Part shown: positions 18,455 to 44,200 of the stretch, in pieces
Layout of the letters: every line of letters begins with the position of its first letter
Numbering within the stretch: position 1 is the first letter of the stretch
Assembly (NCBI GenBank): GCA_032718475.1
Contig: JAUCBJ010008916.1
Coordinates: forward strand, 1,155-65,154
Reading direction: 5' to 3'
From: Nemertoderma westbladi
Lineage: Eukaryota; Animalia; Xenacoelomorpha
DNA length: 64,000 nt
The notes under the pieces: model-generated
Databases searched by the model: none
Told to the model about the DNA's origin: nothing
Seen by the model: the letters and a program-made list of their open reading frames with translations, nothing else
Translations under genes and position numbers: made by a program

Positions 18455-18801
18455 GTAACAGTTATATATTCTGATTGCAGTGTAGGCAATAAATACAGTT
18501 TACTATTGTTCTGGTAAGAACAATAACGGTTATTGCTTCTTTATTGCAGTAGGCAATAAAGCTGAAGTACCGGCCAACCGGTACCCAGTAGGCCTGACTA
18601 CCTAACCACCCGGACCGGTACCTACAGCAGTACAGGTACAGCAGTATTATTCGATTGTGATTACTATATACCGGTAGGTCTTAATAATTAATCGGGGACG
18701 CCTGGTTTTTATTGGGATTTTACTTAGGCCTATTTCTGTCAGTTTTATTTATTTGTAGGCTAATATTGAGCAGAAGGTGTGTAAGCCTGCTCAGATTGTA
18801 C

Positions 18802-19375: not shown

Positions 19376-20823
19376 TATTCAGAGTTTATGCGATTATTCG
19401 CAACATTCATATCCCCAAGTTTATTCCTACAGTAATTGTGCTTGTTATATATACCGTTATAGTTAAACTAACCCCGGTACTACATCAGGGCTGCTTGGCG
19501 TAGGTAAAGACTGGTGATTTTGTGCCCCGGTCACTCCAGCAGATACCGTGGTTCTTTTGGCTGTTCAAGTATTTTTAACTACTGATTATTTGTTGTATAA
19601 GTACTTGTACCTAATTTAGGGTTTAGTGTACAGTGTTTTCCGATGGTGATTAGTGTGTAGGCAGTATATTTGTGTTGTAAAGTGGTTAATAGGCACGTTG
19701 GTTCTGGTAGACCGCGGTAATTAACTTCTAGGTAAGAACACTCCGTGATACATAACGTAGTACTTATAGCGATACGGCTATAAGTTGTCAGACGGTGGTA
19801 TTTTCCTATCTGGACAACGCAGTATATTTACTACTACTTATTATTTCAAATACCGTAGTACCCTGTCCATTGTAATAACCAGATATTCTAACCCTTTGTT
19901 AGGCTGGTTTGTAGACTTCTTGTAAAATTACCCTAAAAATTCGTACTAGTAAATTTTGTATTTATTTAGAGATTGTAATCTCACCCCGAATTGTACGTAA
20001 TTTGTAGTATTAAGTAACTTAGGTAAATTAGAATTATTTGTTTTAGTGTCCAACAAGTAGCACTTCACTGAGAGCGCACAGCTTCTGTGTAGTGACTCCC
20101 CCCAGAAATAATAACATTTATTTCAAATATTGACAAAAACCCATTAAACGGGTATATATATATTATAAATCAACTCAAACGATTTATAAATAGTAGGCCT
20201 GCCATACAACAATTAGGTCTTAATCAGTTGGACCACTGCTTAAACAACGGTAATAAAGTAAGCAAAGTAACCAAGTAACCCCTAAAATTTCAGAAATTCA
20301 ATTATTCTAAAATAATTGACATACCGGTATTTACCATAGGCTTATTATATTTATTTCTATAAATTTAGGCTGAAATCATACCGGTATTCTGTAATTAATT
20401 CTAGTTCATAATTATACTTATATATATACTATAAGTGTAAGCTGTATACCGGTATTCACGATAGGCCTATTATATATTTATAAATTTAGGCTGAAATTAT
20501 ACCGGTATTCTGTAATTAATTCTAGTTCATAATTATACTTATATATACTATAAGTGTAAGCTGCATACCAGGATTCACGATAGGCCTATTATATATTTAT
20601 ATATATTTGTGCTGAAATTACCTACCGGTATTCTGTGACAAACCTAGTCTGTAATAATCCTTATATATACTATAAGCATACCGGTATTCTAATATATTAT
20701 ATATATATCACGCTACACTGAGTAGCAGTATCGGTAATTAATTACTAGGCTAACGGTGATACTGAATTTCTAGACTTGCTTAAACTGTAATATAGCAGTA
20801 GGCATTCAACTGTACAAACCAAC

Positions 20824-23800
20824 ATGTCTGACACAAAGCAAAACCTGTCAGACAGTCTCCTAGATACAACCATATGTGACCCAGACAGGAGTGTGGAACG
20901 TGTAGGACCGAAGTTCAACTCACCTCCTACTGTAAGAAAGATCATCCCTCCCGTAGTAATATCAGACCCTAGGCTAGTCCAACATCGTAGGTCTATCATA
21001 GGCACTCGAGCTCAGGTCAAGCGGGACCAAGAAGCAGCAGAACAGCAACTTCCCGCGAGCCGAGAACTTATTTCTCAGCGGCCCGACAGCTCCAGTAGTG
21101 CGGATACTGTAGAGCTGACACCCGAGCACGGAGCAAAGATGACAGATGCGGTTTATTCGGATCCCCTTCTCATCCTTCCTGCAGCCGTACTCACGAGGTT
21201 ATTGATTGCGGTGGAGGAACACCAGATTGATTGGGCGAGAAGTAAACAATCGACCTAGGATAGTTATGCGGGATATACAAGGGAAGAACTGAAGTCTATT
21301 GTCGAGTCGCAATGGAACTTCCCCGGACCCAGACTCCCGTTTGACTTATCGGAAGCTGCCTGGGAAGATATACACAGGATGGGAGTGACAAAAGAAACCA
21401 GCGATCCAGCTGTATGGAAGAGGTCAGCAGCCGGATACGTACAGGGATTCTTCAGCTCTATGGAGAGATTAGAGGAACAATTGTTTCGACAACCACAAGG
21501 ACCTCAAGAGCAGGGAAAGCTGCTTTATCAAGTTAGAGAAAGAATTCTAAGAATCAGACTAATCTTATCTGCCTTTGAGGAGGCTTCCAAAAGAAGACAA
21601 GACACGTCGTTGCAAGTTGCCGTAAAGACTTGGTTTCAGCGGGTGAGCCTCCAAGTTCAAAGAACTACCCCGTGGAAATCTCAGTTGGATGAGCGCTCAA
21701 CCCATGGAGAATCAACAGACGCTACCTTTTCCCAAGTGGAAAGCGAAGCGACAGCAGAGAAACCGCATAAGAGGGATGCCATTGACATCTATCTGTCAGA
21801 CTATCAACGCTTTGTAGGGGACGAAGAATTGAGTAGATGGCTGGATGGACTTAGCCCTAATAGTGAAGGAGCCAAGCTTGTGTTGGACGCAATCGATGCG
21901 GATAGGATAGCTGCGAACCAAGCTAAATTTGATGAAAGCATCCGCATCGCTAAGGTTCAAGAAGAACAAGTAAAGAAAAAACGTATAGAAGACAGAAAGA
22001 TAGCAGCAGCGGCAGCAGCAGTGGCAGAAGCAGAAAGAAAGGTGGCAGTGGCAGAGGCAGAAAGAAAAGCGGCCTTGGCAGCTACAGTGGCAGAAGCAGA
22101 AAGAAAAGCGGCTTTGGCAGCTGCAGTGGCAGAAGCAGAACGAAAGGCGTCTGAAGAGACTGCCCAACTAGAGTTGGAAAATCTTCAAGAGAGGCAAGAC
22201 AACTTTAATAAACAGTTAACAGCTAGTAATATGCAGATGATGAATTGATCTACTCCCAAAAGACAAGGTTATACATCATCTGAGGAAGGCGGTACCACCG
22301 ATCCTGAAGGCGGAGGAAATAGATCTCGTCTAAGTAGGCGTAGAAGAACATCTCACCGTCACAAATTGCCTGATTTGCCCCCAGCTGTTAGAAGGCAACT
22401 AACTAACACAGACTTAGGTAGTGCAGAACCCACAGACCAAATAATTAAAATAGAAAGACTCCCTACTATAGTAGATGAGCCTGAAATAATTAGGCCTGTT
22501 CTTGAAATCACCCCTTCGGTGATAGAGACACCTGTGCTCCCAGAACCTACCTCTAAATTCCCTCTGCACAGCACTAAGCTACCTGTGCCCCACAGAACCA
22601 CCCCTGAAAATGTTCATGTCCCTGACTCCGAGCGAAAAATTAATGATTTGTCGCCCGTTGTCCCTCGTCCGCCCGCTACAACGTTGGCGGCTCCCGCTTC
22701 GGCGGTCGAGTGGGTGGATGAGAGACGGCGGGGGATGGATCTCCTGCTCGGGCAGATGCAGGAGACTGTTAAGCAGTTCAAGGGCACAGTAAGGGAAAGT
22801 AGGTTAGAGTTGCAAGAAGTGCAGCAAAGTATCGCATTAGAACGCGATAAATTAGTAAATACACAAAAGGGTATACCACCACCCCCGGTAACAATGTGTC
22901 AACCTGTTAGGTCTGAAGTATCTCATGCGCAAGGTGTGGAGCCTACACGCATCTATACTGCTAGTGAAGTGGAAACTCCTATAGTAAACCCTATTAAGGG
23001 TAATTATAAACCCGTTGACAATGATATCCCATATAGACTTGATAATAATCCGAGAAATTTATATACCGATAACTCGATATTAAATAACACGATGCACCAA
23101 GAAAGTTTTACGCGTCAAATGGCTAGAACCGAAGCCCGTCAAGCGGTAAAGGTGGGAGAGATCGTCAAGTTCAATGGAGATGAGATGAAATGGTTACCTT
23201 TTAATGAATATTACAAATATAACATACAGAACTCTGTGCTATCTAATGGAGAGAAACTTAGATTCCTCATCGAGTGCTTGGAAGGATCTCCCAAGTTAAT
23301 GGCGTTAAAGTTTATTGGACATCCAGACGGATTAAGGCAAGTTCGGGATACACTAAACATCAGGTATGGTAATAGGAATAATATAGCTAAATATTTGTAA
23401 GCAAAATTAGTAGCGCCCCGAAAGTTCATTAGCAGCGGGATAATAGAGTTTTCCGATGAGATTCAAGAGATCTGTAGACAATTAGATTGGTTAGGTAAGT
23501 CTCATGAATATCAGAGTTCTATGGTTATTGGAGCCGTGGCTTCTACTTTACCGAAGGGTGGAGTAGGTACACGCTGGGATAAGAAAGTGTTATATATGAT
23601 GGAACAACAACGACGAGACCCTACCATGGCTGATCTCATGTCATTCTTAGATGGAGAAGTGAAATTACAGCTCCTAAAGCAGTCCAGAGAGAAGACACCG
23701 GAAAACAAGGTAAGTGAGAAACCCGTTTCTAGGAGAAAGGTAACACCAGTGTGTTATACAGACGACGGCGAAAGCCAGACTTCTCAAGGAGAGGATAGCG

Positions 23801-26800
23801 GGAAAGACACTGAAAGATCTTATTATGTCAATAAAACGCCTAAAGAACAGGTAAGTAAATTCAAGTCTCGAACCAATGACAGGAGAGAACAGGTAAGAAA
23901 AACTCCTCCTACGTCTCCCAAGAGAATTCAGGTGAGAAAGCCCGAAGAAAGAACGAGTGTGCACAATGTTATTCAAAATAAGGTAAGTAACATCAAATCG
24001 AAATGTGCGCTATGTGACGGGACCCACCGTTTGAATATGTGTGATGAATTCCTGAAGAAATCATTAACGGAGAGACGGGAAGTCATGTGGGATAAGCGGT
24101 TGTGTTATAATTGCCTCAGACAAGGACACCAACGGCGAACCTGTTACTCCGACACAAGGTGTGCAAACTGTGGTGCGAAACATCATATCTTGTTGCACAC
24201 TGAATTTGAGCGAAACAGCCAGAGTCAGGTAAGTGATTCCGAACTACATGTCCAATTCAGTGATGTGAACGACACTGACCAAAGTTCTGAGATGGAAGGA
24301 TTCTATACAGATGAATTCTCCGACGAAGATGAATCCTGTTACATGATAAATACCGCAGTGTATCGAGCACTTACGTATGAAAAAGACACAGACAGCGACC
24401 TTACCCTAACTACTTCTGATCGACAACCATCTTGGAAACCGCCACCTTCCAATGTAGGAATCCGAGAATTTCCTGTAGTACAGGTAAGGGTCCACGACCT
24501 AAAAGGAGTTATGTAGTGAACGCCCTCCTTGACTCCGGTAGTACAGGAACATTCATCGACAAAGAACTAGCCGAAGACATCTTTGCTGGACAACCCAAGT
24601 TCCGAACTAAGCTAAACATGTCAGGAATTATGCAGGTTTGGAAATCTACAGTAATAGCGGATTATTATGTAGGTGCGTTGTCCACCCCCCAGGATGAACT
24701 AGGAGAACATAGTATAAGGTCAGTAAAAATGGTGGCGATAAAGAACTTTGCTACCACCCAAGTGGAACCTTATAATTGAGATGAGGACGATTTCACCCAG
24801 CAGCTTGAAATACCTAGATTCAACACCGATTACCCTGGAGTGCAAATACTCATCGGTCAAAATGCGCATGAAGCGCCCGAGACATTGGAGAAACGGCCTG
24901 CTCAACCGCAACCACTACAAGCTTATGCGGGAAGAACTAGAGTGGGTTGGTACTTTACGGGCCCTTCCCGTAGAACTCTCATGGAAAGATTACCGAAAGA
25001 CCAGGTATATCAAGTAAGAGAATGGGAAGTCGAGGGCAGTGAGTTAGACGATCCAACTGAGGGAACACCATACTCCTCAGATAATGACGATGTCCACCAA
25101 CTTTTCGACGAAGAGAATACCATTGATCTCCTTAAGGAAAACGAGACTTGGCAAAACCAAGTGAACTTATGTCAGCTCCTTCTTCCATCAGAGCGAGACG
25201 ACTATAACGACAAACTTAATGACGTCATTGAACGTTATAATGCCAAGACTCGGGATGAACACGCCGTACGATTCTTTACTCAAGAGGCTGTAGAGCCCAA
25301 TTCATACGATAAGGCCCTATCAGTAGAAGAAGAAAGAGCCAAGCAGATCCAAGAGACAACTACACGTTTTCTTAAAGATCAAGGTAGATATGAGATCGGT
25401 TTACCTTTCCGAAAGCGAGAACCAAAGTTCGTAAACAACAGACCCTTGGCGGAGAAAAGAATTGCTCAACTACATCGACGCCTTACGGCAAATTCTTCAG
25501 CTAAAGAAATGTATCAAACGCAGTTGAAGAAATTTATTAGCAAGGGATATGCGGAGCTAGTACCGGAAGAAACACCTATAACTGAGAGAACGTATTATTT
25601 AACTCACCATTACGTTCCCAAACCCGGTAAACCCCATGAGGTACGAGTGGTGTTTGACGGCTCCGCCCTCTATATGGGCCAATCCCTTAATTCCGAATTG
25701 TTACCCGGACCCAACTTACTCCAATCCTTGTTGGGAATACTCCTAAGATTAAGACAATATTCAATTGCTTTCGCCTCAGATATAGAAGGCATGTTCTTAC
25801 AAGTCAAGGCGCTGGATAGGGATTGAGATAGCCTACGATTTCTGTGGTGGCCTGAAGGAGACCTCAACCAGAAACCGGTGGAGTACTGGATGACCATCCA
25901 GGCATTTGGGATAATCTCAAGCCCTTCAAACGCCTGTTCAGTGGTGCGCACCACTGCGGATGACAACCGAGAAGCCTTCTCTAAAGAGGTGATTGACAAC
26001 ATCAAGCGGGATATATACATGGACGATAATCTAAAGTCCCTTCCATCAGTCGAAGAAGCCATTGACGTCGCTAAAGGAACGGTAGAGTGCTTAAAAAGAG
26101 GTGGATTTCGATTAACTAAATTCACCAGCAACTCCCGTGAGTTTCTGGAGTCGATCCCGGTAGAAGATCGAGGAGCGAAAGACCTAGATCTAATAAAAGA
26201 TGATCTCCCAGAAACTAAGACCCTTGGTTTGAAATGGGACACAGAAAGAGATATCCTGTTTTTCCAACTAAAACAGCGAGATAATCCAGTTCGGACTAAA
26301 CGGATTTGTTTAAGTATCCTGAGCACTTATTTCGATCCATTGGGATTTATTAGCCCAGTTATATTGATTGCTGGGAGTTTAGTACAACAAATGTGGCTTG
26401 AAAACCACTCATGGGACGATCCACTTAAGGGAGAATTATTAAAGAAGTGGATGAAATGGGAAGATTCTCTACCAGCCATCGAGAACTTTATAATTTCCCA
26501 TTCATATTTTGGTCATGTTCTCCCTACGTATTCCTATCAACTCCACGTGTTTGGAGACGCCAGCGATATGGGAATAGGTATAGTAGCCTACCTAAGGGTG
26601 GAAACTCCGGACGGAATCAAAGTCGCCTTGGTTACCTCCAAGGCATTGATAAACATTAAGTTGAAAGTTCCTCGAGCAGAGTTAAAGGCGGCTCTATACG
26701 CTACAGCCATCGGCCGGAATGTAACAGAACAGATCGACTATCCACTGGAGAAAACTGTCTATTGGACCGACGCTTTACTCGTGTTGGAGTATATAACCAA

Positions 26801-28889
26801 TGAAGTCTGTCAGTTCAGCGTCTTCGTTACCAACAGAGTAGCCATTATACTCAGTCGCACAACGATGGATCAATGGAGACATTGCCCCGGAACGATTAAT
26901 CCAGCAGACATCGCCTCCAGGGGAGCAACTCCACAAGAACTGGTAGATACTCCAGACTGGTTAGGTGGACCCGACTTCCTCTACAAAGAAGAAGAAGAAT
27001 GGCCTCCTCATCTTACTACCACAGAGATTAGACAGGCCAAGGGAGCGGAGAAAGTCAAACCTAAAACTCGGGCGAGTAAATCGAAGTTATTCAAACCCAT
27101 GGTAGATCTGTCTGTACTACATACTTCCGGAGACGACGCTTTGGATCAGAAACCCACAGCCACAAATAAGCTTGTTGTGGAAATCCGTGAGAAGGATTGG
27201 AAATCTGGAGTACCAGACGTCTCGCAAGGACTCTCACCTCTTCTGCAGAGAGCGATACATCACTACAGTTCCTGGAATCGGCTCTGTAAGGCCGTTACAT
27301 ATTTAAAGAGATGTTTTCACCATCACTACTCCGGGATGAAGACCAAAAGTGATACCGCTCCAATAACATCGGTGCAAGTCCATGTTATTAAAGATCTTCC
27401 CAAATATAAGATATCCGACAGGTTTCTGAAGGAGAAGATCAGTTATCAGGAGCATGAAGAAACCAACAAGCAGATGCTGAGACTCCTGCAATGCTATGAG
27501 GATTCCGATAAGTATTTCCTGTTGTTAAGGCGCTTAAGGGATCGTTTCTCTAGCACAATGATAGATGGGTTGATACGTGTTGGAGGAAGATTAACGAATG
27601 CTCCATTATCCTTTGACACTAAGTTTCCCATACTCATTAGAAATCTTGAGATACAAGTCAAGATGATTGTAGATGTTCACAGCAAACTTTATCATGCTGG
27701 TAGAGAACGAGTTCTTAGCGAAATTCGAACTCGCTATTATTTTTATAAACCCCGTAGAGCTCTGAACCAAGTTCTTAGGAACTGCATACCCTGTAGGAAA
27801 GCATTCAGTAGGCCTTTAACACAGCGAGAGGCAGAATTACCTAGGGAACGAGTAAGCTTCTATGAACCACCCTTTACTAATACCGGTGTAGATTTATTTG
27901 GCCCTATTGAAGTATATCGTGCTAGGACTATAGTCAAGAGATGGTGTGTCATCTTTGTTTGTATGACTTGTAGAGCTATCCATCTCGATATGGTGAACGA
28001 TTTATCTACCAACAGCTTCCTATTAAGCTTACGACGACAGATCGCTTGCTTTGGAACTAGTAACACGATGAGATCTGATAAGGGAACAAACTTCATTGGT
28101 GCCAACAATGAAATCAAAGCTTACGTCAAAGATTGGAACCAAAGACAGGTGGACGATCAGCTACGAGTAACAGCGTCTAGCTGGACCTTCAACGCCGCCG
28201 ACGCCCCTTGGTGAGGAGAAAGTTGGGAGAGATTAATAAGAAGTGTGAAGACCGCATTTCACTTTATAGTGCCATGCCGCGCGTATCTCACCGACGAACT
28301 TTTGCGGACGTTAATGGAGGAAATCGCCGCCTATCTCAACGAGAGACCGCTTATGCCAGTCTCATCGAGTCCCGATTCCCTGGAAGCGCTAACACCCGCG
28401 CACTTCCTACTGAAGAAACCTGTAGCCATGCTCCCACAATCGGAAATCACAGACGGAGACGAATACTGCCGGCAAACTTGGCAACTCATGCAGTTGTTAT
28501 CCCGTCGTTTCGCTGACCATTTCGAAAAACATTATCTGCCCACGCTACAACTTCGAACTAAGTGGTTTGCGCAGCAAGAAAACGTCAGCGCTGGAGACAT
28601 GGTCCTTATTGTGGATTCAGATCTTCCACGTAAGCGGTGGCAGACAGGTCGTATCATCGAGACTCACATCTCGGATGACGCTTTGGTGCGATCGGTAGAA
28701 CTCGTCGTCATGCGACGTAACTTCAAGAAACCGGGAATTGTCTTCGAGACACAGCAGCTCAATCGCCCAGTTGGTCGTTTATGTTTACTGGAAAGTGACA
28801 GAGAACTCTCCGGAAACTATGGAAGGCAAGATACTCTTCCCACGACCACCTCCCTAATCCAACAAACATCTAGGGACTCCCCAACTTAA
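20824..28889 (+). pseudogene. BEL gag-pol polyprotein, disrupted by 5 in-frame stops and 2 frameshifts
   Basis: DUF1759-like KFNGDEMKW; three Zn knuckles (CALC..H....C, CYNC....H....C, CANC...HH..LH); protease LLDSGS; RT VRVVFDG, DIEGMF, YMDD; RNase H VFGDAS, RAEL, WTD; integrase HHCC, GVDLFGP, SDKGTNF, WERLI. Stops at 21256, 22246, 23398, 24777 and 25824; frameshifts near 24500 and 28210. Confidence 0.95.
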
Positions 28890-30528
28890 CAACGGCTGGA
28901 GTGGGTGTGTGACTATATTTGTATTTGTTTTTATTCTTTTATATTTATGTATGTATTATTATGTAATTTTATTATAATCGTTTTCGTTAATTTTATTTAG
29001 TAGAATGTTATTTTAGCGATTATTTAGTAGATTAGTGCAATATATTAGCGTTTATTACTTAATTACTTATATATTATAGATTTAGTGCGACGGCGAGAAA
29101 TAATTCTTTTCTCTTTCCTTACTGTCCGTATTACATTATAAATACGTGACTACCGTAAGATGAAATGTCCGTACTTATTAAAGTACAATAAAGCTCCTAC
29201 TATATTCAAGTATTATCGGTAAGTAGAGTATTAGGAATGCAAAGTTCAGATCCTCGTGTCTTGGCTAAACCAAGCTCTGGGTAGACCTTGGAAACGACTT
29301 GCCTCTTCTCACTGACATTGCTTCGTGCGATATTGCTCTCATACCGTATATTAAATAATACATATAGTAGCGTGATGTCCCTTTAACAGTAGCGTAAAAC
29401 GCAAAATAAATCTGTTAAACCCTTTGACCATCTGCAATTCTAGTCGATTAAGATATCGCGGCACCCACCGATATACTTGAAAGACAAAATTCTAGAATCA
29501 GTGGTTAACGTCCCCAGACTTGTTCTGGAATAAACCGGTGCCCATCCTAAATATTAACTATTAATATTTATAAAATCTGTCAAATTTCAGATCCTTTAAC
29601 ATTCTAGTCGATTAAGATATCGTAGCACTTACCGATACTCTTAAAAAGACAAAATTCTAGAATCAAGGATCCCAGTCCCCAGACTTGTTCTGGAATAAAA
29701 TTGTGTCTATTTTAATATTAAATAATAGAATTGCGGGAATAAATTTAAATTCATCTTTTAATGAATTTGATAAATTGTTATTTTATACAATTTATAATAT
29801 TCCCAAAATTCCATTAATTAATAGATCATGGGAGCGGAGATTCACCTATTAAGTGTATTAGTGTGCGAGAATCTCCAATATAGAGTCAATAGCCGATAAA
29901 ATTCATAAAATCATGTATAAAGATGATATTGACCATTAAAGACTCACTATTAAATAGCCTCCCAGATCTGTATGCATGGGAATTACCCTAATTCTACCGC
30001 TAGCTTTCCATAATGTCACCATAGCAACAACCACGCTAGAATTAGAAGCGAGTTAACAGAACAATAAAAAGCTTGCTCATTGAATATCATACAGAATAAA
30101 TAGCACACCGCTAGTATCCAAGGATACATAATAACAACGTGACATTCTGGAAGGCACTTGACTAACGGACAAATGACCCGAATGTGTGATAGAATGTGTA
30201 CCATTTGTGACAGTTACGTGGAATTTGTGCGTTTGTAGGTGAATGTTACTACTAAGGTGTGTTTACAGTAGCGAGTCGCAATTGTGAAAGTAGCCCTAAC
30301 TCTCCAGTAAGAACCTGAAGTATATCTAAGCCTTTGGGACGGACGGTGGAGTGACTCGTGCTGGTTGTTGTAGTCGTTGTGCAGCTACGACGTTGGCGAT
30401 AGGCACATCGGCGAAAGTACACCAGCGCTGAGGATCTCGCACTGTCCGGGGGCAGAGAGGGGTAGGCAGCGACGCCCGCTCGCCTAAATATAAACTCATT
30501 ATAATATGGATAAACTTATATAGCAGAT

Positions 30529-32105
30529 ATGATTGAGTTGATAGAAGATGATCTTGGTATCAGGGAGCGATATACTCTACCTTTACAAGCGTTTGTTGAT
30601 AGCTTGATACGCGGCGACGCTAGTCCAACTACTACGGAGGACGATGGTCGTTATATCGAACCGCCAATGTCCCAGGAGCAACTTACGCGTGAATTGGACT
30701 ATAGAAAATTCACCGCTCGCTGTGCGCGTCGTAAATGGTACGTATATGGACTTCTTAACTACTGGTCATCCTATCGACCTACACGATACGAACGATATAG
30801 ACACCAAAAGGGAAATGGTTTTATTTAAATATCATACCCAGCGGAAGCGGAACGATAAACTGAGACTCGAACACGAAAATTCTATTCGAAACCGACTCGA
30901 AAGTGAGGATGTTGAAGAGCCGGATAAACGCAGCGACTTCACCAAAATATCTGGAATTCCTGGGAGAAACATATCTCGATATTACCAGTCAACAGAATCT
31001 AGGAACTCGATATCCTCAAGGTATATATCATGACCGCATGGTAGAACTCAAACGGCTCTATTCCACTATGATGTATCTTACCGCCGATCGACCGCTACCT
31101 GTTGTACCGGATAGCTTCGAACAGATGGAGGAATATTGTAAGCTGGAGAAAGATCACTCGCGTTCCCCCTACAAGACGTGCGTCTTTGGTATTATTGCGA
31201 TGAATGCCCTAGACCCAACCAACAAACAGAAAGACCTAAACATCCGCGGAGACGTTGCACTAAACACGGTTTTACTCGCTATACTTGCGGGAGTTTCGAG
31301 CGAAATTTGTTTGACGTATCACCTACGCTCGTTCGACTCAGACGATCCTTAAATAAACCAATGATCAGAGTTTCGGAATACTCGATCAGACCTCCTCATT
31401 CCCTAGTGAGACCTCAGACTCTTGATCCTATTAGTATGACGGATCCTCCCGAGCTGTACTCACTGTTCAAAGATCTAGTGTTACCTGAACAATTAGTCGG
31501 TGGCACCCCGGTTGTGGGCTTCCTAGATATTAGCCCATCCTCCCTAACCGGATTGGGACGCGGACATTTAATATCGCCGTTTAACCCTTACCATCGTCCC
31601 GGCTTAACACGATATAACCTGTCACCAAAGTGGCGGAGAGCGTTGTACCAAATGAGTTAGACACTATTCTACAAAGATCAGAAAAGGAACTTACGCTTGT
31701 TCAGATAAACGTAAATTGCACTAGCAAGTCCAAGCGGTAAACAAAGTAACTTTATCTCAGTTCGATCGGGAAATCCAGAATCTCTAAGAAGTTATCGAAC
31801 TTGGACGACCCTATTCTCTGCGAGAGTTTTTGGATGAACGTATCCAGCTACGAGCAGAGGAAAATCAGCTCGAGGAGAAGCATATCGAAACAGCGGATAC
31901 CCCGACCATAATCCTACACCTTCTGATGCAATCATATTGCACCCTTCACCCAGGAGTTATGGCCCTCCTAGTAAAGTGGCTCCCCCCAAAGAGAAAAGGA
32001 TTCTTGCTAGCTTTAAAAAACTGCGTAAACGCCGTCCACGCAAGACAGACTAACTGTTTAGAGTATTTTTATATTTTAGAAACTGTGATTTTTTATATTT
32101 TATAG
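30529..32105 (+). pseudogene. Extra ORF (ORF3) of unknown function in the env position, frameshifted, about 500 aa if joined
   Basis: Pieces 30529-30828, 30644-31033, 30903-31352, 31178-31660 and 31830-32105 tile the region. The homologue in copy 2 differs by many third-position synonymous changes. Confidence 0.7.
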
Positions 32106-32131
32106 AATTAAATCCCATTTTCTGGGAGCGG

Positions 32132-33299
32132 TGTAAAAGCTTTTGTGGGATATAACTGGCCCTTTTGCTTCGCAATCCAGTTTCCCTCAATGCGCTCAAA
32201 TACTCTAAAGAAAAACTCCCTAACTCAAATGATGCAAGCTACTGGCTGATTGGCTGATTTGCTGTACGTATGGCCTCTTTGTTCTGTTCGATCAACCAAC
32301 CAGAGCAAGGTCAACCAAGCAGAGTGATTCATCCTGTGTGTTGGCTAAGGGCTGCAAAAACCCGAATAGTTCGGCATTTAGACATTCGTGGAATCTGTGG
32401 AATATGGAGCTCTGCCAATGAGAGCTTTTCCTCTTTGTGTTGAAAGCTACCTGCAACAGCTCACAGGGTTCAGTGTGTTGGTTTTTCCAGAGCCTAAGAA
32501 CATCGGCCATGGAATTATTCTGAATTATTCCAACATTAGAACGACTTTAATTATAAGAACACATAACTGTTACCGCAGTGGACCGGCACGGTACGGTACG
32601 GTACGGTACGGTACGGTACCTACTGCTGTATTGCACATTATTTACTGCTATTTACTGTTTGTTATTAATTGTATCAGTTGTTTACATATTGTTATTTGGA
32701 GAATAACGATAAACGATCAGAAACCCCGATCTTCTTGATACACTAAGGTTAGAGAGACCGGTTACATATAGCAATTGCGACTTATATTATCGTGCTTGTA
32801 GTGAATTGAATGGATATGTCGGTTGCTATTCTCTTTATATATGATTAAAATCAGTGACTATCGGCAATTCAGTGTGCAGCGGTGTGCAATAGTCTGTATG
32901 TGCTTGTCCGCGTAACAAAGCATCTCCTAAAGAATGCGCCTTATGTGTAACTTATAATCCATTCCGTTGTGTTTAGTGTAAGCCATAGCTCTGTTTATAT
33001 AGATAGAGCGCCACGTCCTAAAGGAACTGCTAATATTTCCCGAAAGTGAATGATATTTGTCAGGAATTATATTAACGATCAATCGAATAGTACGGTAGGC
33101 CTGCACCGCAATCAAATTAAAGCATCCGAATCCAGTCTCCCGGGTATATCCAGCGGGTGAATGGTCGCGCATAGACTGGCTTCGGTTAATGTTGGATTTA
33201 TTTGTGTCAAATACTTGTCATAGGCTAAAGTCGATTTATAACCTAGAAGACATATAGATTTGGCGGGTTAAACTGCCAAAGGTCTTAAAAGCGCGAACA
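32132..33299 (+). repeat. Copy 1 3' LTR (1168 bp)
   Basis: TGTAAAAGC...GCGCGAACA, preceded by the PPT-like tract. Confidence 0.93.
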
Positions 33300-33473
33300 T
33301 ATACTGTATGAGCGTCGTATACGTATATGTCTACTATTTAGTGTTTATACTTTATTATTTTACTGTATAAGTACGTTGTTGTTGTGTACTGTTTATTCAT
33401 TTATATTATAATCTATGTGCTTTGTATATGTGTTCTGTATAAATCTTTATTCTTTATTATTTTACTGTATATG
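33300..33473. repeat. TG/TA-rich ~104-bp tandem repeat, left remnant (BEL target sequence)
   Basis: Homologous to 45406-45760 (TATGTGCTTTGTATATGTG, TTTAGTGTTTATAC). Confidence 0.75.
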
Positions 33474-34676
33474 TGTAAAAGCTTTTACTGAATTGTCCGG
33501 TTATTTTTCCTTATTTTTCCCGTAAAGTACTCTGTAGTTGGTTTACCAGGCATAAAAAGGCCGTGTCCTTGCTGTACTGGTGTTTTAGCGGACATAAGAG
33601 CTATTTCTTCTGTATTTGTACTTTAGAGGACATAATCCGTAATTCCATGACGTAAAAGCTCGATACTCTTGAACAGTGTCGCTACCATGACGACAGCTAG
33701 CAGCTGATATTGCCACGTCGACGTTTCTTTGTTTCTCTGTTCTCTTGTTGTTCAGGTTGACCAATCAGAGCGTTTGTTGTCTTTGTGTTGGAGGTATATA
33801 CAGAAACTCAGTAGTTCAGTGTTATGTTTTGGCCCAGAGCCTAAGAACCGGCTTTGGCACCTCCGTGTTTCAGTTTTTAGTCTTACACTAGTAGGTTTAA
33901 TTATAAAGGGCATATATCCTTTAACTCATGGAATCACTGCTGACTGATCATACATGCTGACTGCTGAAACATTGCAAACTCATAACAATCAGTGTTTTCA
34001 TTGTTGTTTTATACTGCTATTCACCGTCAGTTCTTCATAATATGGTTGATGAATAATTATATTTGGAATAACGATAAATAACCCCGAAACCCAATATTCT
34101 TGATATACCGAAGGTAAGAGAGAAGGGTTACAGATAAACGATTGTGACTTATGTTAAAGTGGTTTGAAGTGAATCTAATGTTATTTGATAGACCCTACAT
34201 GAGTCAGTCTGTGTTCCTTTTATATGTGACTAAAATCAGTGAAGATCGGCAGATTAGTGTGCAGTATTGTGCAGCATTGTGTATGAGTGAGTCTGTTAAA
34301 GAAGCATTCCTAAAGAATGCGCCATATATGTGAATTATAATTAAGCCATATCGTTGTGAGTAGTTTAAGTCATAACTCTGTTTATGTAGATAAAGCGCCA
34401 CGTCCTAAAGGAACTGTTAATATTCCCGAAGGTAAATAATATTGTCAGAGATTATATAATACTGTCAGTCGAATAATACATTAGGCTTACATAGCAATAA
34501 AATTAAACCGTCGAACCCAATCTCCCGGGAATATCCAGCGGGTGAATGATCGCGCACAGATTGGTTTCGACTAGTGTAGTGAATCAAATACTTGTCATAG
34601 ACTAAAAACCGATTTAATATCTAGAAGACATCTTAATTTGGTGGGTTAAACTGCCAAAGGTCTGAAAGCACGAACA
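33474..34676 (+). repeat. Copy 2 5' LTR
   Basis: TGTAAAAGCTTTTACTG...GCACGAACA; CCAAT near 33761 and TATA-like near 33795. Confidence 0.95.
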
Positions 34677-35932
34677 TTAAAGGATATTGCTTCTTTGTTG
34701 CAGTAAGCAATAAAGTTGAAAGTACCGGTCAACCGGTAAACCTGAACCGGTACACTCTGTAGGTCAGTAGGCCTAACTGTTCTAACCGGTACTTCAGTAT
34801 AAGTACACTAGTATTATTCGATTTGATTATTGCATACCGGTAGGCTGTTTAAGGGATTAGGGATTGATCACCCCTTATACCTTTATATGGTTTACTTATT
34901 TCTGTCAAGTTTTATTTATTTGTAGGCCAGTATTGAACAGAAGGCGTGTAAGCCTGATCAGATTGTACAGACGATTTGTAGGCTGAGCTGTTGTCTGATT
35001 GCTGTTAAGTCCGAACGAATTGCAGTGTGTGTAGATCACCTGTCCGATTAAGTACGATTAGGCAGTAGGGGCAGCGAACGCTGTAAGGTAATCCCCCAAC
35101 TAAAGAATAAGTCGCACTACTGGGTTAGAGCGCATACTCCCTAATCATTTCGGAGTCTGCATGTCCTGTGGTTTATTTAGGCTTGAGAGTGGTCTGCCAT
35201 CGTTTAGTCTGTACTTTGTTTGTGTAAGTCTGTACGGGTAGCGTATAATTTTATTTAGATAATTTGTAGGCTGGATAGTTGTCTGGCTGTTATTAGGTCT
35301 GAACGGATTGCCGCGTGTGTAGATCATCTGTCCGATTAAGTACGATTAGGCAGTAGGGGCAGCGAACGCTGTAAGGTAATCCCCCAACTAAAGAATAAGT
35401 TGCACTACTGGGTTAGAGCGCATACTCCCTAATCATTTCGGAGTCTGCATATACCGTAGTTTGTTTAGGCTTGATAGTAGTCTGTCAGTGTTCGGTCTGT
35501 ATTTTGTTTGAGTAGTTTGTACGCGTAGCGTAATATTTATTATTCAGAGTTTATGCGATTATCCGCAACATTCATTCCCCAAGTTTGTTCCTACAGTAAT
35601 TGTGTTTGTTATACATACCGCTATAGTTAAATTAACCCCGGTACTACACGGGCTGCTCGGCGTAGGTAAAGACTGGTGATTTTGTGCATCGGTCACTCCA
35701 GCAGATGCCGTGGTTCTTTTAGCTGTTCAAGTATATTTAACTACTGATTATTTGTTGTACAAGTACTCGTACTTAATTTAGGGTTTAGTGTACAGTGCTT
35801 TCCGAAAGTAATTAGTGTAGGCATTATATTTGTGTTGTAAAGTGGTTGATAGGCACATTCGATTAGCTCTATTAACTTCTAGGTAGGAACACTCCGTGAT
35901 ACATAACGTAGAACCTATAGCGATACGGCTAT

Positions 35933-37069
35933 CAGTAAGGGAAAATACCCCGAATCGGGGTATAGAAGCAAACCCCCATTCGGGGTTTTGTGATACCCCG
36001 ATTCGGGGTTCTCCCATAGACATTTTTTCTCCTTCATTTCCGCATATGAAGATTTTAATTCCGCAATTTCGTTTTAACATATTCGAATACACATTGGTGT
36101 GTAGTACAAATAAGAAAACTTTGGAGTAATAATGAAATCTTCCGGCTTCGATATTGTACCGGAAAATCTAATGTAAATTGTACCCCGAATCAGGGTATCC
36201 AGGACTCCCTGTACCCCGAATGGGGGCTTGTGATATATTCATACAGCCTGCAGAAGCACCGATTCGGGGTCAGTATTTTCTAGTACACCGATTCAGGAAT
36301 TCAATTTTCTCGAAAATACACCGAATCGGCTCTTTTTTTCCACTCTGACACCGATTCGGTGTATATTTTCTAGTCTTTTTTTATATTTTTTAATGGATTT
36401 TCGTGATCTAATTCATGCAAAACCCGACTTGGCGAATTAATATCCCGCCTCAATGTTAAATTATCAATTTAGGGAAAGGAGCTGGTTACAGTGGCACGTT
36501 ATTTTAACCAAAACAATAAACTAAGCACAATAGAATAGGTTACAACAGTCTTATTTTTGAGAGTAGTCCGCGGTTATTTGCGTCGAATTTACCTTGGAGA
36601 GGGATTAATTTTTATTGCGTCCAGATCCCCCCCCCTATCATATCCATATTTATAAATCAGTTGATAGACAAATAACACTGCAATAATAATAATGTAAATG
36701 TACAATATAGTAATATACGGTCTGACAGTACCTCCCGTACTTCAGTAGTAGGCCCTATCTATCAATATAGTTACTACATTTATATTATGACTGTATGAAA
36801 CAGTATTGTACTGCACAAAATGTAATTTTCGCACTATGAATTCCAGTCTGGCGTGAGTGAAACATCATTTTTCTGGAGGGGCGTAAATAAATCCTATACC
36901 CCGATTCGGGGTATACCTAATTTTTCCGCTGCCTGAGGATTTTCTAGTAGAGCACCGATTCGGGGTATAGCTTTCTACTGAAAATCTCGAATCGGTGTCA
37001 CTATTTTCCACTATGACACCGATTCGGTGTATAGAGCTGTACCCCGATTCGGGGTATTTTCCCTTACTG
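35933..37069. mobile_element. Non-autonomous TIR element (MITE) with 5-bp TSD, nested in the copy 2 leader
   Basis: 30-bp perfect TIR CAGTAAGGGAAAATACCCCGAATCGGGGTA; TSD GCTAT; the empty site GATACGGCTATAAG is present in copy 1 near 19771. Confidence 0.93.
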
Positions 37070-37992
37070 GCTATAGGTCGTCAGGCGGTGGTATTTTCCT
37101 ATCTGGACAACGCAGTGTATTTACTACTACTTATTATTTCAAATACCGTAGTACCCTGTCCGTTGTAATAACCGGTTTTCTAACCCTTTGTTAGGCTGGT
37201 TTGTAGACTTCTTGTAAAAATACCCTAAAAATTCGTATTTGTGTTTTTGTAAATTTTTGTGTTTATTTAGAGATTGTAATCTCAACCCGAATTGTACGTA
37301 ATTCGTAGTATTAAGTAACTTAGGTAAATTAGAATTATTTGTTTTAGTGTCCTATACGTAACACTTCACTGAAAGCGCACCGCTTTGTGTAGTGATTACT
37401 CCCCAGAAATAATAACATTTATTTCAAACATAGACAAAACCCATTAAAACGGGTATATATATTATAAATCAAATCCAACGATTTATAAATAGTAGGCATA
37501 CCATAAAACCATTAGGTCTCAATATCAGTTGGATTACTGCTTAAATAACGGTAATAAAGTAAGTTAAAGTAACCAAGTAACCCTGAAGTTCAGAAATTCA
37601 ATTATTCTAAAATAATTGATATACCGGTATTTACGATAGGCCTATTATCTTATTTCTATAAATCTAGGCTGAAATTATACCGGTACTTGTAATTAATTCT
37701 AGTCCAGAATTATATATACTACAAACTGTAAGCTGTATACCGGTATTCCCGATAGGCCTATTATATATTTATATATATTTGTGCTAAAATTATACCGGTA
37801 TTCGGAGATAAACCTAGTCTGTAATAATAGTTATATATACTATAAGCATTCCGGTATTCTAATATATTATATATATCACGCTACACTGAGTAGCAGTATC
37901 GGTAATTAATTACTAGGCTAGCAGTTAATACTGAATTACTAGACTTGCTTAGACTGTAATATAGCAGTAGGCATTCAACTGTACAAACAAAA

Positions 37993-40900
37993 ATGTCTGA
38001 CACAAAACGGGCACTGTCAGATAGTCTTTTGAAAGGTATTAGAATCAGCCTTAGACTTGGACAGTATCTTGAAAAGATAGAAGCGGAAAGAAAAGCAGCA
38101 GCGGCAGCTGCAGAAGCGGAAAGAGAGGTGCAGCAGCGGGTCCGGGAGTTGGAAGAGACTGTTCAACAGCTAAAGGGAACCGTAAGAGAAGTAAGTTAGA
38201 ATTACAGGAAGTGCAGCAAAGTATCGCTTTAGAATGCGATAAATTAGTAAATACACAAAAGGGTATACCACCACCCCCTGTAACAATGTGTCAACCCGTT
38301 AGGTCTGAAGTATCCCATGCGCAAGGTGTGGAGCCTACACGCATCTATACTGCTAGCGAAATAGAAACTCCTATAGTGAACCCTATTAAGGGTAATTATA
38401 GACCTGTTGATAATGATATTCCATATAGAACTGATCATAATCCGAGAAATTTATATGCCGATAACTTGATATTAAATAGCACGATGGCCCAAGAAAGTTT
38501 TACGCGTCAAATGGCTAGAACCGAAGCCCGGCAAGCGGTAAAGGTGGGAGAGATCGTTAAGTTCAATGGAGATGAGATGAAATGGTTACCTTTTAATGAA
38601 TATTACAAAGATAACATACAGAACTCCGTACTATATAATGGAGAAAAACTTAGATACCTCATCGAGTGCTTGGAAGGATCTCCCAAGTTAATGGCGTTAA
38701 GGTTTATTGGACATCCAGACGGATTAAGACAAGTTTGGGATACATTAAACATCAGGTATGGTAATAGGAATAACATAGCTGGGTATTTGTATGCAAAATT
38801 AATGGCGCCCCGAAAGTTTCTTAGCAGCGGGATTATAGAGTTTTCCGATGAGATTCAGGAGATCTGTAGACAATTAGATTGGCTAGGTAAGTCTCATGAA
38901 TACCAGAATTCTATGGTTGTAAGAGCCTTAGCATCTGCTTTGCCCAAGGGTGGAGTAGGTACACGCTGGGATAAGAAGGTGTTATATATGATGGAACAAC
39001 AACGACGAGACCCTACCATGACTGATCTCATGTCATTCTTAGATAGAGAAGTGAAATTACAGCTCCTAAGGCAGTCCAGAAGAAGACATTGGAAAACAAG
39101 GTAAGTGAGAAACCCGTTTCTAGGAGAAGGGTAACACCAGTATGTTATACCGACGACGGTGAAAGCCAAACCTCTCAAGGAGAGGACAGCGGGAAAGACA
39201 CTGACAGGCCTTATTATGTCAATAAAATGCCTAAAGAACAGGTAAGTAAATCCAAGTCTCGACCCAATGACAGAAAGGAACCGGTACAAAAAACCCCTCC
39301 TACGTCTCCTAAAGGAATTCAGGTGAGAAAGCCCGAGGAAAGAACAAGTGTGCACCACATAGCACAGGTTAAAGTAAGTAACATCAAGCCGAAATGTGTG
39401 CTGTGCGACGGGCCCCACCGTTTAAATGCGTGTGATAAATTCCTGAGGAAATCACTCGAGGATAGACGTGAAGTCATGTGGGATAAGCGGTTGTGTTATA
39501 ATTGCCTCAGACGAGGACACCAACGGCGAACCTGTAACTCCGACGCAAGGTGTGCAAAGTGCGGCGCAAATCATCATATCTTGTTGCACACGGAATTCGA
39601 ACGAAACAGCCCGAGTCAGGTAAGTGAGTCCGAACTACATGTCCAATTCAGTGATGTGAACGACACTGATCAATCTGAGATGGAAGGATTCTATACGGAC
39701 GAGTTCTCCGACCAAAACGAATCCTGTTACCTAATAAACACCACCGCAGTGTATCGAGCACTCGTGTATGAGAAAGACACAGACAGCGACCTTACCTTAA
39801 CTACTTCCGATCAACAACCATCTTGGAAAGCGCCAACTTCCAATATAGGAATCCGAGAATTTCCTGTAGTCCAGTTACGGGTCCACGGACCTCAGAAGAG
39901 CTATATAGTGAACGCCCTCCTGGACTCCGGTAGCACAGGAACATTCATCGATAGGGAACTAGCCGAAGTCATCTTTGCTGGACAACCCAAGTTCCGAACC
40001 AAGCTAAACCTGTCAGGGATCATGCAGGTTTGGAATTCTACTGTAGCTGCCGACTATTATATATGTGAGTTGTCCACCCCCCAGGACGAACTAGGAGAAC
40101 ATAGCATCAGGTCAGTGAAAATGGTGGCTATAAAGAACTTCGCTACTACTCAAGCAGACCTTTATAATTGGGACGAGGATGAGAGCATCCAACATCTTAA
40201 CATACCTCGATTCCAGACTGATTATCCTGGAGTGCAAATACTCATCGGCCAAAACGCGCATGAGGCGCTGGAGACATTAGAGAAACGACCTGCTCAACCG
40301 CAACCACTTCAGCCCTATGCGGTAAGAACTAGAGTAGGTTGGTACCTTACTGGACCTTCCCGTAGAACGCTCAGAGAAAGACTGCTTCAAGATCGCGTCT
40401 GCCAGCGGAGTAAATGGGAAGATGATACTAGTGAGGGAGACGACCCAACTGAGGGAACACCACACTCCTCAGATAATGACAATCTTAGCTCCAATGTAGA
40501 TCAATGGAGATATTGCCCCAAGAAGTTTAATCCAACAGACATCGCTTCCAGAGGAGCAACTCCTCAAGAACTGACAGATACTATAGACCGGTTAGGTGAA
40601 CCCGACTTCCTGAGTAAGGAGAATGAATGGCCTCCCCATCTTACTCCGACTGAGATTAGACCAGCCAAGGGAGCGGAGAAAGTCGAACCTGAAACCCGGA
40701 CGGGTGGATCGGAGTTATTTGAACCCGGGATAGATCTGTCGGTATTACATGTTGCCAGGGACGACGCCGTGGATCTGAACCTCCCCACCGCGAGTGGATC
40801 CTTCATGAAGATCAGAGAGAGCGATTGGAGCTCTGGAACATCAGACGTCTCGCAGGGACTCTCACCTCTCCTGCAGAGAGCGACGGACCACTATAGCTCC

Positions 40901-41134
40901 TGGAATCGGCTTTGTGACGCCGTCATATACTTTGAGCGATGTTTCTATCGTCACTATTCCAGGACAAAGAGGAAACCTGGAATTGTATTCAGGATGCAGC
41001 GACTCAATCACCCAGTCGGTCGTTTGTGTTTATCGGAAGGGAATGGAGGACTCTCCGGAAACTGTGGAAGGCAAGATTCTCTTCCCACGACCACCTCCCT
41101 AATCCTTCAAACATCTAGGGACTCCATAACGTAA
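37993..41134 (+). pseudogene. Shortened gag-protease ORF fused to short pol remnants; two 1-bp frameshifts
   Basis: Gag knuckles and LLDSGS are retained; RT/RNase H and the integrase core are absent. Single-base deletions near 38190 and 39080 relative to copy 1. Confidence 0.9.
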
Positions 41135-42789
41135 CAACATATGGAGTGGGTGTGTGACTCTATTATTTTATATTATTTTATTATTTTTATATTTATGTAT
41201 GTATTACTATGTAATTCTATTATAATCGTTTTCTTTAATTTTATTCAGTAGAATGTTATTTTAGCGATTATTTAGTAGATTAGTGCAATATATATTCGCG
41301 TTTATTACTTAATTACGTATATATTATATTTAATGCGACGGCAAGAAATAATTATTTTCCTTCTTCCTTACTGTCCGTATTACATTACAAATACGTAACT
41401 ACAGTAAGATGAAATGTCCGTACTTATTAAAGTACAATAAAGCCACTACTATATTCAAGTATTATTGGTAGGCAGAGTATTAGGAATGCAAAGTTCAGAT
41501 CCTCGTGTCTCGGCTAAACCAAGCTCTGGGTAGACCTTGGAAACGACTTGCCTCTTCACACTGACATTGCTTCGTGCGATATTGCTCTCATACCGTATAT
41601 TAAATAATACATATAGTAGCGTGATGTCCCTTTAACAGTAGCGTATAACGCAAAATAAATCTGTTAAACCCTTTGACCATCTGTAATTCTAGTCGATTAA
41701 GATATCGCGGCACCCACCGATATACTTGAAAGACAAATTCTAGAATCAGTGGTTAACGTCCCCAGACAAGTTCTGGAATAAATCGGTGCCCATCTCAAAT
41801 ATTAATTATTTAATATTTGCAAATCTAATAAATCAAAATCTGTAAAATTCAGATCCTTCAGCAATTCTAGTCAATTAAGATATCGTAGCATTTACCGATA
41901 TTCTTAAAAAGACAATTGTCATAGAATTAAGGATCTTGTGTCCCCAGACATATTCTAGAATCAAAATATGTCAATTTAATTATCAAATAATAAAATTTCA
42001 GGGAATAAATTTAAATTCATGCCTTTTAATGAATTTAATAAATTGCCATTTTTACGCAATTTATAACATTCCCAAAATTCCATTAATTAATAGATCAAGG
42101 GAGCGGAGATTTATCTTATTATGTGTATGAGTGTGCGAAAGTCTCCCAAACATAGTCAATAGCCGATAAAATTCATAAAGTCATGTATAAAACAGAACAT
42201 TGACTATTAAAGAATACTATTAAATAACATCCCAGATCTGTATGCATTGGAATTGCTCTAATTCTACCGCTAGCTTTGCATAATGTCACCATAGCAACAA
42301 CCACGCTAGAATTAGAATTGAGTTAAAAGAACAATAGAAAGCTTGTCCCATTGAATAGCATAGGGAATAAATAGTGCACTGATAGTATCCAAGGATACAT
42401 AATAATACAGTGACATTCTGGAAGGCATTGACTAACGGACAAGTGACCCGAGTGTGTGTAATTTGTGACAAGTTGTGTGTGTGGTACTTGTGAGTTTATA
42501 GGCGAATGTTACTACTAAGGTGTGTTTACAGTAGCTAGTCGCAATCGTAAAAGTAACCTAACTCTCCAAGGAAAACCTGAAGTACATCTAAGCCTTTGGG
42601 ACGGACAGTCGAGTGACTTGTGCCGGTTGTCGTTGTCGTTGTGCGGCTACGTCGTTGGCGAAAGTACAGCGGCGACGACACATCGGCGCTGAGGATCTCG
42701 TACTGTCCGGGGGTTAATTGGAGTAGGCAGCGACGCTCGCTAGCCTGAATATAAACTCATTATAATATGGATAAACTCATATAGCAGAT

Positions 42790-44175: not shown

Positions 44176-44200
44176 TGAAAATCCCATTTTCTGGGAGCGG

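What the first reader, a model, noticed from the sequence alone, without database searches (positions are those of the whole stretch)
30529..32105. Unrecognised non-env extra gene in a BEL family, with signs of purifying selection
An ORF of about 500 aa sits in the env position, 1.6 kb after pol. It starts acidic (MIELIEDDLG), with no signal peptide or Cys-rich ectodomain, unlike the viral glycoproteins captured by other BEL/Pao elements. Coding is supported by synonymous changes (cag gag caa ctt acg cgt gaa vs caa gtg cag ctc tcg cga gag; gca/gcg; aca/acg), and copy 2 corrects the first frameshift of copy 1. The region is still present, though decayed, in the derivative that lost RT and integrase. 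It could be an anti-silencing factor or a captured viral or host protein.
Basis: partly seen in the sequence, partly recalled or inferred. Interest (0 to 1): 0.8.

Follow-up and report, generated by a model that had tools for sequence, protein, structure and literature searches.

The report
Broken orphan gene in BEL retrotransposon
A retrovirus-like jumping gene of an animal genome carries, where some relatives have an envelope gene, a third gene that is broken in both copies seen here, matched no known protein, and likely encoded a soluble, possibly nuclear helper protein rather than an envelope.

Summary
Partly confirmed. Both BEL/Pao copies in the window carry a plus-strand, coding-derived region between pol and the 3' polypurine tract (coding-path z 5.9 and 3.5; reverse strand, spacer and LTR null). 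It is not an intact 500-aa ORF. The frame from ATG 30529 is 99 aa, the longest open piece is 172 codons, and at least four frame changes and a stop are needed to reach the end. About 270-390 codons are well supported; the tail is weaker. Between the two copies selection is not significant (dN/dS 0.80, P 0.12; gag 0.39). Variants segregating among family copies in public reads are mostly synonymous (7 of 11, P 0.009), while differences private to copy 1 are neutral. No signal peptide, Cys-rich ectodomain or clear anchor; no homologue found; structure models too poor to use. The 9-mer ATATAGCAG precedes only the gag and ORF3 starts, which suggests a subgenomic mRNA. Best reading: an orphan accessory ORF3, once selected, now decayed here, likely a nuclear regulator (CERV- or Tas-like; weak support). 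Side find: no tRNA primer site, but a covarying Tf1-type self-primer.

The parts
17551..18454 (+). 5' LTR of copy 1, 5'-truncated remnant
   Evidence: 7 mismatches and 2 gaps in 904 columns against the 3' LTR
18455..18465 (+). primer site without TGG; exact complement of an 11-mer in its own LTR (17700-17710, 32563-32573)
20790..20798 (+). ATATAGCAG ending 26 nt before the gag ATG; candidate splice acceptor or start signal
20824..24516 (+). gag of copy 1, three zinc knuckles, DUF1759; stops at 21256, 22246, 23398
24519..28889 (+). pol of copy 1 (PR, RT, RNase H, integrase); frame change near 24500; stops at 24777, 25824, 28212
28895..28910 (+). purine-rich tract followed by TG right after the pol stop, in both copies; possible relic of an older element end
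28890..30528 (+). non-coding spacer, 20 ATGs, internal duplication, second copy of the PPT 9-mer at 29829 (copy 1)
30489..30494 (+). TATAAA 40 nt before the ATG, in both copies
30518..30526 (+). ATATAGCAG ending 3 nt before the ORF3 ATG; same word as before gag
30529..31138 (+). ORF3, 5' part, about 202 codons, acidic; broken in copy 1 at 30733 and 30944
31139..31400 (+). ORF3, ambiguous part: two frames open in copy 1, one with a hydrophobic 19-mer, the other with CxxC-x16-CxxH; family indel at 31138-31139
31401..31708 (+). ORF3, third part; open to a stop at 31658 shared by both copies; synonymous bias continues to the double stop at 31706 and 31712
31709..32053 (+). coding-like tail in changing frames, ending KKLRKRRPRKTD-stop; 95% identical between copies from 31800; link to the upstream frame not shown
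32123..32131 (+). polypurine tract
32132..33299 (+). 3' LTR of copy 1 (TG...CA, 1,168 nt)
33474..45405 (+). copy 2: LTRs 99.5% alike, 5-bp target duplication, gag and protease kept, RT and integrase deleted
42790..44122 (+). ORF3 region of copy 2, with three deletions (23, 137, 26 nt) and several stops

Best explanation
The region is the broken remnant of a third, non-envelope gene of this BEL/Pao family, which was likely under selection while the subfamilies diverged, was likely expressed from its own subgenomic mRNA, and would have encoded a soluble, possibly nuclear helper of the element. Shown: coding origin, position between pol and the PPT, presence across the family, breakage in both copies here. 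Inferred: expression by splicing to the ATATAGCAG site shared with gag, or from the TATA box 40 nt upstream, because the spacer's 20 ATGs would block scanning. Most weakly inferred: the function, a regulator acting in trans on the element's own RNA or promoter (export, transcription or protection from silencing), as CERV does for Cer1 and Tas for foamy viruses. Action in trans would let many copies lose it. Odds: real non-env accessory gene 0.85; nuclear regulator of this kind about 0.3.
For: Coding path z 5.9 and 3.5 with null controls; the path's first two breaks fall within 15 nt of indels seen independently in public reads. 202 codons are open across breaks fixed by those indels (chance 1.5e-5). 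Segregating family variants are synonymous in 7 of 11 (2.9 expected, P 0.009) in the 5' part, and in 13 of 25 (P 0.016) or 15 of 24 (P 0.0006) over the two candidate paths. Near-fixed differences from copy 1 are not (1 of 7, 4 of 13, 2 of 13). ATATAGCAG occurs 4 times in 64 kb, only before the gag and ORF3 ATGs of both copies (1 of 100 shuffles reached 4); three donor-like sites are conserved in the leader. No signal peptide (best hydropathy 0.46 in the first 68 codons), few Cys, acidic head, basic tail that fits the K-(K/R)-X-(K/R) import consensus quoted in PMC10309623. Contigs of a second organism code cover 30 of 30 bins of the ORF stretch.
Against: Two-copy dN/dS is 0.80, not significant. 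The variant tables are cut by the tool (40 of 749 and 40 of 412 rows shown), and the 15-of-24 path was chosen after seeing the data. No intact copy was seen, and no contig spans the region. Stops at 31658, 31706, 31712, 31785 and 31835 are shared by both copies, so the basic tail may not belong to the same protein. The shared 9-mer was noticed post hoc and amounts to two independent places (my rough chance estimate about 0.02). No homologue or reliable fold supports any function.
Confidence: 0.4

Rival explanations
1. Dead cargo: a gene captured from a virus or the host, useful briefly or never, carried along because its two ends overlap cis-acting RNA signals near the PPT.
For: Later stops and frame changes are shared by both copies. 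Many internal deletion joints in public contigs, e.g. 30647-31376, 31215-31859, 31566-31779. The tail is 95% identical with no codon bias and folds moderately (z -2.0).
Against: Synonymous excess among segregating variants; start signal shared with gag; no donor found in viral, phage, PDB or 1.84-billion-protein searches.
Confidence: 0.25
2. Two or more overlapping or spliced ORFs rather than one: a first of about 275-290 codons ending at 31352-31406 and a second from 31142 to 31660, with the tail as a further exon. This concerns structure and is compatible with the best explanation.
For: Two frames are open over 69 codons (chance 0.023). Acceptor-like AGs are conserved at 31406, 31704 and 31953. 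CERV is built from exons in different frames (PMC10309623).
Against: No conserved strong donor after 30738 and no conserved slippery heptamer near the shifts. A family indel at 31138-31139 could join the frames in some copies.
Confidence: 0.3
3. A degenerate envelope or a FAST/sORF2-like membrane fusogen that lets particles pass between cells.
For: Env position. One hydrophobic 19-mer (hydropathy 1.84 in copy 1, 1.61 in copy 2) near the end of the shorter ORF reading.
Against: No signal peptide, 4 Cys in the first 270 residues, no MGxxxS/T start, one K/R in the 13 residues that follow the hydrophobic stretch before the stop in copy 1, and it exceeds the 60-210 aa sORF2 screen. The stretch holds N, T, S and E.
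Confidence: 0.1
4. Remnant of a separate transposon nested after an older element end (PPT plus TG right after pol), later fixed inside new LTRs.
For: PPT-like tract plus TG at 28895-28910 in both copies, second PPT 9-mer at 29829; element about 16 kb, above the 4.2-10 kb range.
Against: No transposon domain hit. The spacer and ORF match nothing else in the window except copy 2. The ORF start shares a 9-mer with gag, and the tail ends 70 nt before the PPT.
Confidence: 0.07

Closest known systems
CERV of Cer1, a Ty3/gypsy element of C. elegans (PMC10309623; abstract, outline and passages)
   Same: Orphan accessory protein of about 500 aa, partly coded in the env position, once taken for env, with a basic import signal and a Cys cluster; needed for nuclear export of genomic RNA.
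   Different: Gypsy, not BEL/Pao; spliced from gag exons; intact and tested. No sequence similarity detected here; splicing, location and function untested here.
Non-env ORF3 of bdelloid Juno/Vesta LTR elements (PMC5408684; parts 1-2 of 5 read)
   Same: ORF3 after pol that is not env; family-specific.
   Different: Those are GDSL esterases, DEDDy exonucleases, coiled-coil or membrane proteins in non-BEL clades; no such Pfam hit here.
env-bearing BEL/Pao elements: roo (F type), mosquito chuvirus-glycoprotein elements (PMC13524379 passages; PMC8742986 whole text)
   Same: Same superfamily, third gene in the same position.
   Different: Theirs are glycoprotein fusogens; this lacks signal peptide, Cys-rich ectodomain and a clear anchor.
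Plant eORF-3'F of SIRE and Athila/Tat/Ogre (PMC6317226 passages)
   Same: Sense extra ORFs of 250 codons or more after pol, mostly without known domains (21.4% had one), behind long non-coding spacers.
   Different: Plant copia and gypsy lineages; no plant mobile domain or Transposase_28 hit here.
Foamy-virus Tas (search listing and abstract starts only)
   Same: Nuclear regulator tied to an internal promoter.
   Different: Retrovirus that keeps env; analogy only, nothing tested.
Tf1/sushi self-priming (PMC7175516 passages)
   Same: 11 nt after the 5' LTR pair with an 11-mer of the element's own LTR.
   Different: Chromoviral gypsy elements; here the RNA start and the cleavage are not shown.

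Membership tests
BEL/Pao (Belpaoviridae) | pol order PR-RT-RH-IN with the Pao-type domain | tested here: met
   LDSG 24528, YMDD 26016, HVFGDAS 26544, HHCC 27678-27783, DLFGP, SDKGTNF; Peptidase_A17 E 6.8e-34; all 114 homologues listed carry PF05380, top hit 35% identical
BEL/Pao (Belpaoviridae) | Gag with three zinc knuckles (recalled as typical) and DUF1759 | tested here: met
   knuckles at 24004, 24103, 24160; DUF1759 E 1.2e-12 in copy 2
BEL/Pao (Belpaoviridae) | LTRs of 0.2-1.2 kb and a PPT of about 10 nt | tested here: met
   LTRs 1,168 and about 1,205 nt, TG...CA; PPT 32123-32131
BEL/Pao (Belpaoviridae) | 18-nt primer site for tRNA-Arg or tRNA-Gly (ICTV profile) | tested here: not met
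   no TGG within 30 nt of either 5' LTR; self-complementary 11-mer instead
BEL/Pao (Belpaoviridae) | genome of 4.2-10 kb | tested here: not met
   copy 1 spans 17551-33299 with a truncated LTR, about 16 kb
BEL/Pao (Belpaoviridae) | placement in an RT tree with reference clades | not tested
   no named reference set at hand; filed as BEL/Pao-type by pol domains
Env fusogen (F, gB or phlebovirus type) | N-terminal signal peptide | tested here: not met
   best 19-mer hydropathy 0.46 in the first 68 codons, acidic start (hydropathy only, no signal-peptide predictor)
Env fusogen (F, gB or phlebovirus type) | Cys-rich glycosylated ectodomain | tested here: not met
   1, 0 and 3 Cys in the first three pieces, one NxS/T
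Env fusogen (F, gB or phlebovirus type) | C-terminal membrane anchor | tested here: inconclusive
   one borderline 19-mer (1.84, 1.61) at about 31254-31310; none in the tail
Env fusogen (F, gB or phlebovirus type) | sequence or fold homology to a viral fusogen | tested here: inconclusive
   no hits, but model pLDDT 47.5 and 30.5
sORF2/FAST-like fusogen | 60-210 aa, MGxxxS/T start, membrane helix followed by three or more K/R | tested here: not met
   criteria from 10.1101/2025.03.14.642691; start MIEL, longer, one K/R after the hydrophobic stretch
CERV-like nuclear regulator | basic nuclear import signal and Cys cluster on the same protein | tested here: inconclusive
   KKLRKRR tail and CxxC-x16-CxxH exist in copy 1, but in frames whose link is unproven; the Cys motif is broken in copy 2
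CERV-like nuclear regulator | spliced mRNA, nuclear location, need for RNA export | not testable with these tools
   no RNA run on record for this stretch
Tf1-type self-priming | primer site complementary to the element's own LTR, kept through sequence change | tested here: met
   two different 11-mers, each pairing with its own LTR at the matching place; own duplex -15.6 and -19.5, swapped -3.6 and -3.8 kcal/mol; 15 and 24 of 20,000 shuffles
Tf1-type self-priming | complement is the RNA 5' end and is cut by RNase H | not testable with these tools
   needs RNA end mapping

The most novel reading that the evidence does not exclude
A deep-branching, about 16-kb BEL/Pao lineage is organised like a complex retrovirus without an envelope: it primes itself instead of using a tRNA, and it makes a subgenomic mRNA, through the same acceptor word as gag, for an orphan nuclear regulator of a new protein family that serves gag-protease-only derivatives in trans.
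Probability: 0.25. Interest if true: 0.7.

Novelty: new variant of a known kind. Interest (0 to 1): 0.42.

Why it matters
Extra genes after pol are known in gypsy and copia elements and often turn out not to be env (CERV, rotifer enzymes, sORF2). In the papers I could search, BEL/Pao third genes are described only as env-like (Repbase, GyDB, supplements and subscription journals not seen). A selected, non-env orphan ORF3 would widen that picture and offer a candidate transposon-encoded regulator in animals. The value is held down because both copies here are broken, the protein's extent is uncertain and nothing identifies its function.

Tried and rejected
Sequence searches, all blank for the extra gene: Pfam, PHROGs, NCBIfam, PDB sequences (13, 53-55; best E 0.2), word-based homologue search (403 candidates, longer proteins only; 60 candidates), HMMER over 1.84 billion representatives, viral contigs, phage records, exact 22-mer in metagenome contigs. 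Coverage was uneven. One search used one frame (second piece, 31142-31657 and tail); the first 68 codons went to no large protein set, and 30948-31349 only. ESM Atlas: top hit 0.91, bacterial hypothetical, recognition below threshold; a second Atlas query could not be run. Single-sequence AlphaFold2: pLDDT 47.5 and 30.5; no Foldseek match at E 0.001; best VIA Z 7.1 over 62 residues, a common helical bundle. No relative of pol with flanks in metagenome or viral contigs. No whole genome held. No RNA holder listed; no evidence either way. Rfam found nothing in 17000-46000. The conserved spacer block does not fold better than shuffles (z -0.23). Minus-strand coding rejected. Programmed frameshifting: no heptamer conserved at the shifts. 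I first took the CxxC-x16-CxxH frame as the true one. The codon model, copy 2's stops (0 against 3) and family variants (6 of 10, one a stop-to-stop change, against 3 of 10) favour the other frame, while the family indel favours this one; left open. Host species not identified.

Full report
Setting. The window holds two related LTR elements in tandem. Copy 1 runs from a truncated 5' LTR (17551-18454) to a 3' LTR (32132-33299). Copy 2 (33474-45405) has 99.5% identical LTRs and a 5-bp target duplication. Pol of copy 1 is BEL/Pao-type by domain order and Pfam; its top homologue among 114 listed is only 35% identical. Copy 2 keeps gag and protease but lacks RT and most of integrase. Copy 1 itself has three stops in gag and three in pol. 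No genome is held for the window, so other copies were seen only as contig pieces from four public runs.

Is there an ORF? Not as described. From ATG 30529 the frame is 99 aa; the longest open piece is 172 codons. But the region derives from a gene. A codon model trained on the window's genes, this element's gag-pol included, finds a path with z 5.94 in copy 1 and 3.48 in copy 2 (0 of 200 shuffles each). The reverse strands, spacer and LTR score -1.1 to 0.2, the leader 1.1. The path's first two breaks lie within 15 nt of 30733 and 30944, where copy 2 and contigs of all four runs differ in length from copy 1. With those breaks fixed, 202 codons are open (chance 1.5e-5). From 31139 to about 31350 two frames are open in copy 1. 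One has a hydrophobic core and is favoured by the codon model, by copy 2's stops and by family variants. The other carries CxxC-x16-CxxH, runs on to 31658 and is favoured by an indel at 31138-31139 in some copies. After 31658 both copies share stops in every frame, and this 3' part alone is weak (z 1.8, 7 of 200). It ends in KKLRKRRPRKTD, 70 nt before the PPT. So 270-390 codons are well supported, and about 500 is only the span.

Selection. Between the two copies dN/dS is 0.80 over 295 codons (P 0.12), against 0.39 for gag and 0.28 for protease; the RNase H relic gives 0.75. Public contigs add a second test. Of the single-base differences shown by the tool (40 of 749 and 40 of 412 rows; 48 lie in the ORF span, and I used the 38 within 30529-31705), those segregating among copies are synonymous in 7 of 11 in the 5' part (2.9 expected, P 0.009). 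Over the two candidate paths they are synonymous in 13 of 25 (P 0.016) or 15 of 24 (P 0.0006, path chosen afterwards). Near-fixed differences from copy 1 are neutral (1 of 7, 4 of 13, 2 of 13). This is the pattern of a gene selected while subfamilies diverged and decaying after insertion. The contigs also show many internal deletions, so much of the family does without it. A run with another organism code covers 30 of 30 bins of the ORF stretch.

What the protein is. Nothing identifies it. All family, homologue, Atlas and structure searches were blank or uninformative, with uneven coverage (see Tried and rejected). It does not look like env: no hydrophobic start, four Cys in about 270 residues, one borderline hydrophobic 19-mer. 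It fails the published sORF2/FAST screen (10.1101/2025.03.14.642691, passages). The head is acidic and the possible tail is basic.

How it would be expressed. The spacer holds 20 ATGs, the longer gag leader 5, so ribosomes are unlikely to scan to ORF3 (inference). TATAAA lies 40 nt upstream in both copies. ATATAGCAG occurs four times in 64 kb, ending 26 nt before each gag ATG and 3 nt before each ORF3 ATG, and three donor-like sites are conserved in the leader. A shared splice acceptor giving a subgenomic mRNA, or an internal promoter, is the likely route; neither is shown.

Mechanism and rivals. I commit to an orphan accessory gene for a soluble regulator acting in trans on the element's RNA or promoter. 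The nearest tested analogue is CERV of Cer1, a 517-aa nuclear export factor once taken for env (PMC10309623); I came to it through unchecked notes of this scan. The gene's reality I put at 0.85 and this function at about 0.3. Rivals are dead captured cargo kept by cis signals, several overlapping or spliced ORFs, a degenerate fusogen, and a nested transposon remnant.

Comparison and novelty. Non-env extra ORFs after pol are known in rotifer (PMC5408684, parts 1-2 of 5) and plant (PMC6317226, passages) elements. For BEL/Pao, the ICTV profile (PMC8742986, whole text), PMC3118150 and PMC13524379 (passages) name only env-like third genes, and searches listed no title on a non-env case. Repeat databases, supplements and subscription papers were not seen. 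Unchecked notes of this scan mention other BEL elements with extra genes. The element departs from the ICTV profile in size and primer site, so I file it as BEL/Pao-type by pol, without a tree.

Side result. Neither copy has a tRNA primer site. The 11 nt after each 5' LTR differ between the copies, yet each pairs exactly with its own LTR at the matching place (15 and 24 of 20,000 shuffles; own duplex -15.6 and -19.5 against swapped -3.6 and -3.8 kcal/mol; pair probability 0.4 and 0.75-1.0 in the folded leader). This is the Tf1 arrangement (PMC7175516, passages). Earlier notes report it in other genomes; they are not independent support.

Verdict. A real but broken non-env ORF3 of unknown family in a divergent BEL/Pao-type element: new variant of a known kind, interest 0.42.

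Noticed in passing
18455-18465 and 34677-34687; complements at 17700, 32563, 33914, 44643: No tRNA primer site. Each copy's 11 nt after the 5' LTR pair exactly with its own LTR at the matching place though the two 11-mers differ: candidate Tf1-type self-priming. Unchecked notes of this scan report the same in BEL/Pao of other genomes; two paper searches listed no title on it for BEL/Pao.
   Followed up: partly
33474-45405: Copy 2 is a young (LTRs 99.5%) gag-plus-protease derivative without RT and integrase; gag and protease are under purifying selection against copy 1 (dN/dS 0.39, 0.28), like plant TR-GAG elements (search listing only).
   Followed up: partly
33300-33473 and 45406-45745: Both elements border the same roughly 104-nt tandem repeat; copy 2 has a 5-bp target duplication in it. 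Possible preference for this satellite.
   Followed up: no
35934-37068: A 1.13-kb non-coding insert with 32-nt terminal inverted repeats is nested in the leader of copy 2.
   Followed up: partly
18455-20823: The 2.37-kb leader holds only 5 ATGs against 20 in the 1.64-kb spacer, and a 289-nt tandem duplication in both copies.
   Followed up: partly
29270-29450: Spacer block nearly identical between the copies (3 changes in 180 nt) without unusual folding or Rfam match.
   Followed up: partly
4963-6174 (-) and 14467-16908 (+): LINE fragments (RT; endonuclease) among satellite arrays of 22, 42, 54, 63 and 24 nt.
   Followed up: no
48175-49137 (-), 54078-55802 (+), 59431-60066 (-): Host-like ORFs: a divergent PP1-type phosphatase, a 574-aa ORF with no significant Pfam family, and a BART/ARL2-binding domain protein.
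   Followed up: no
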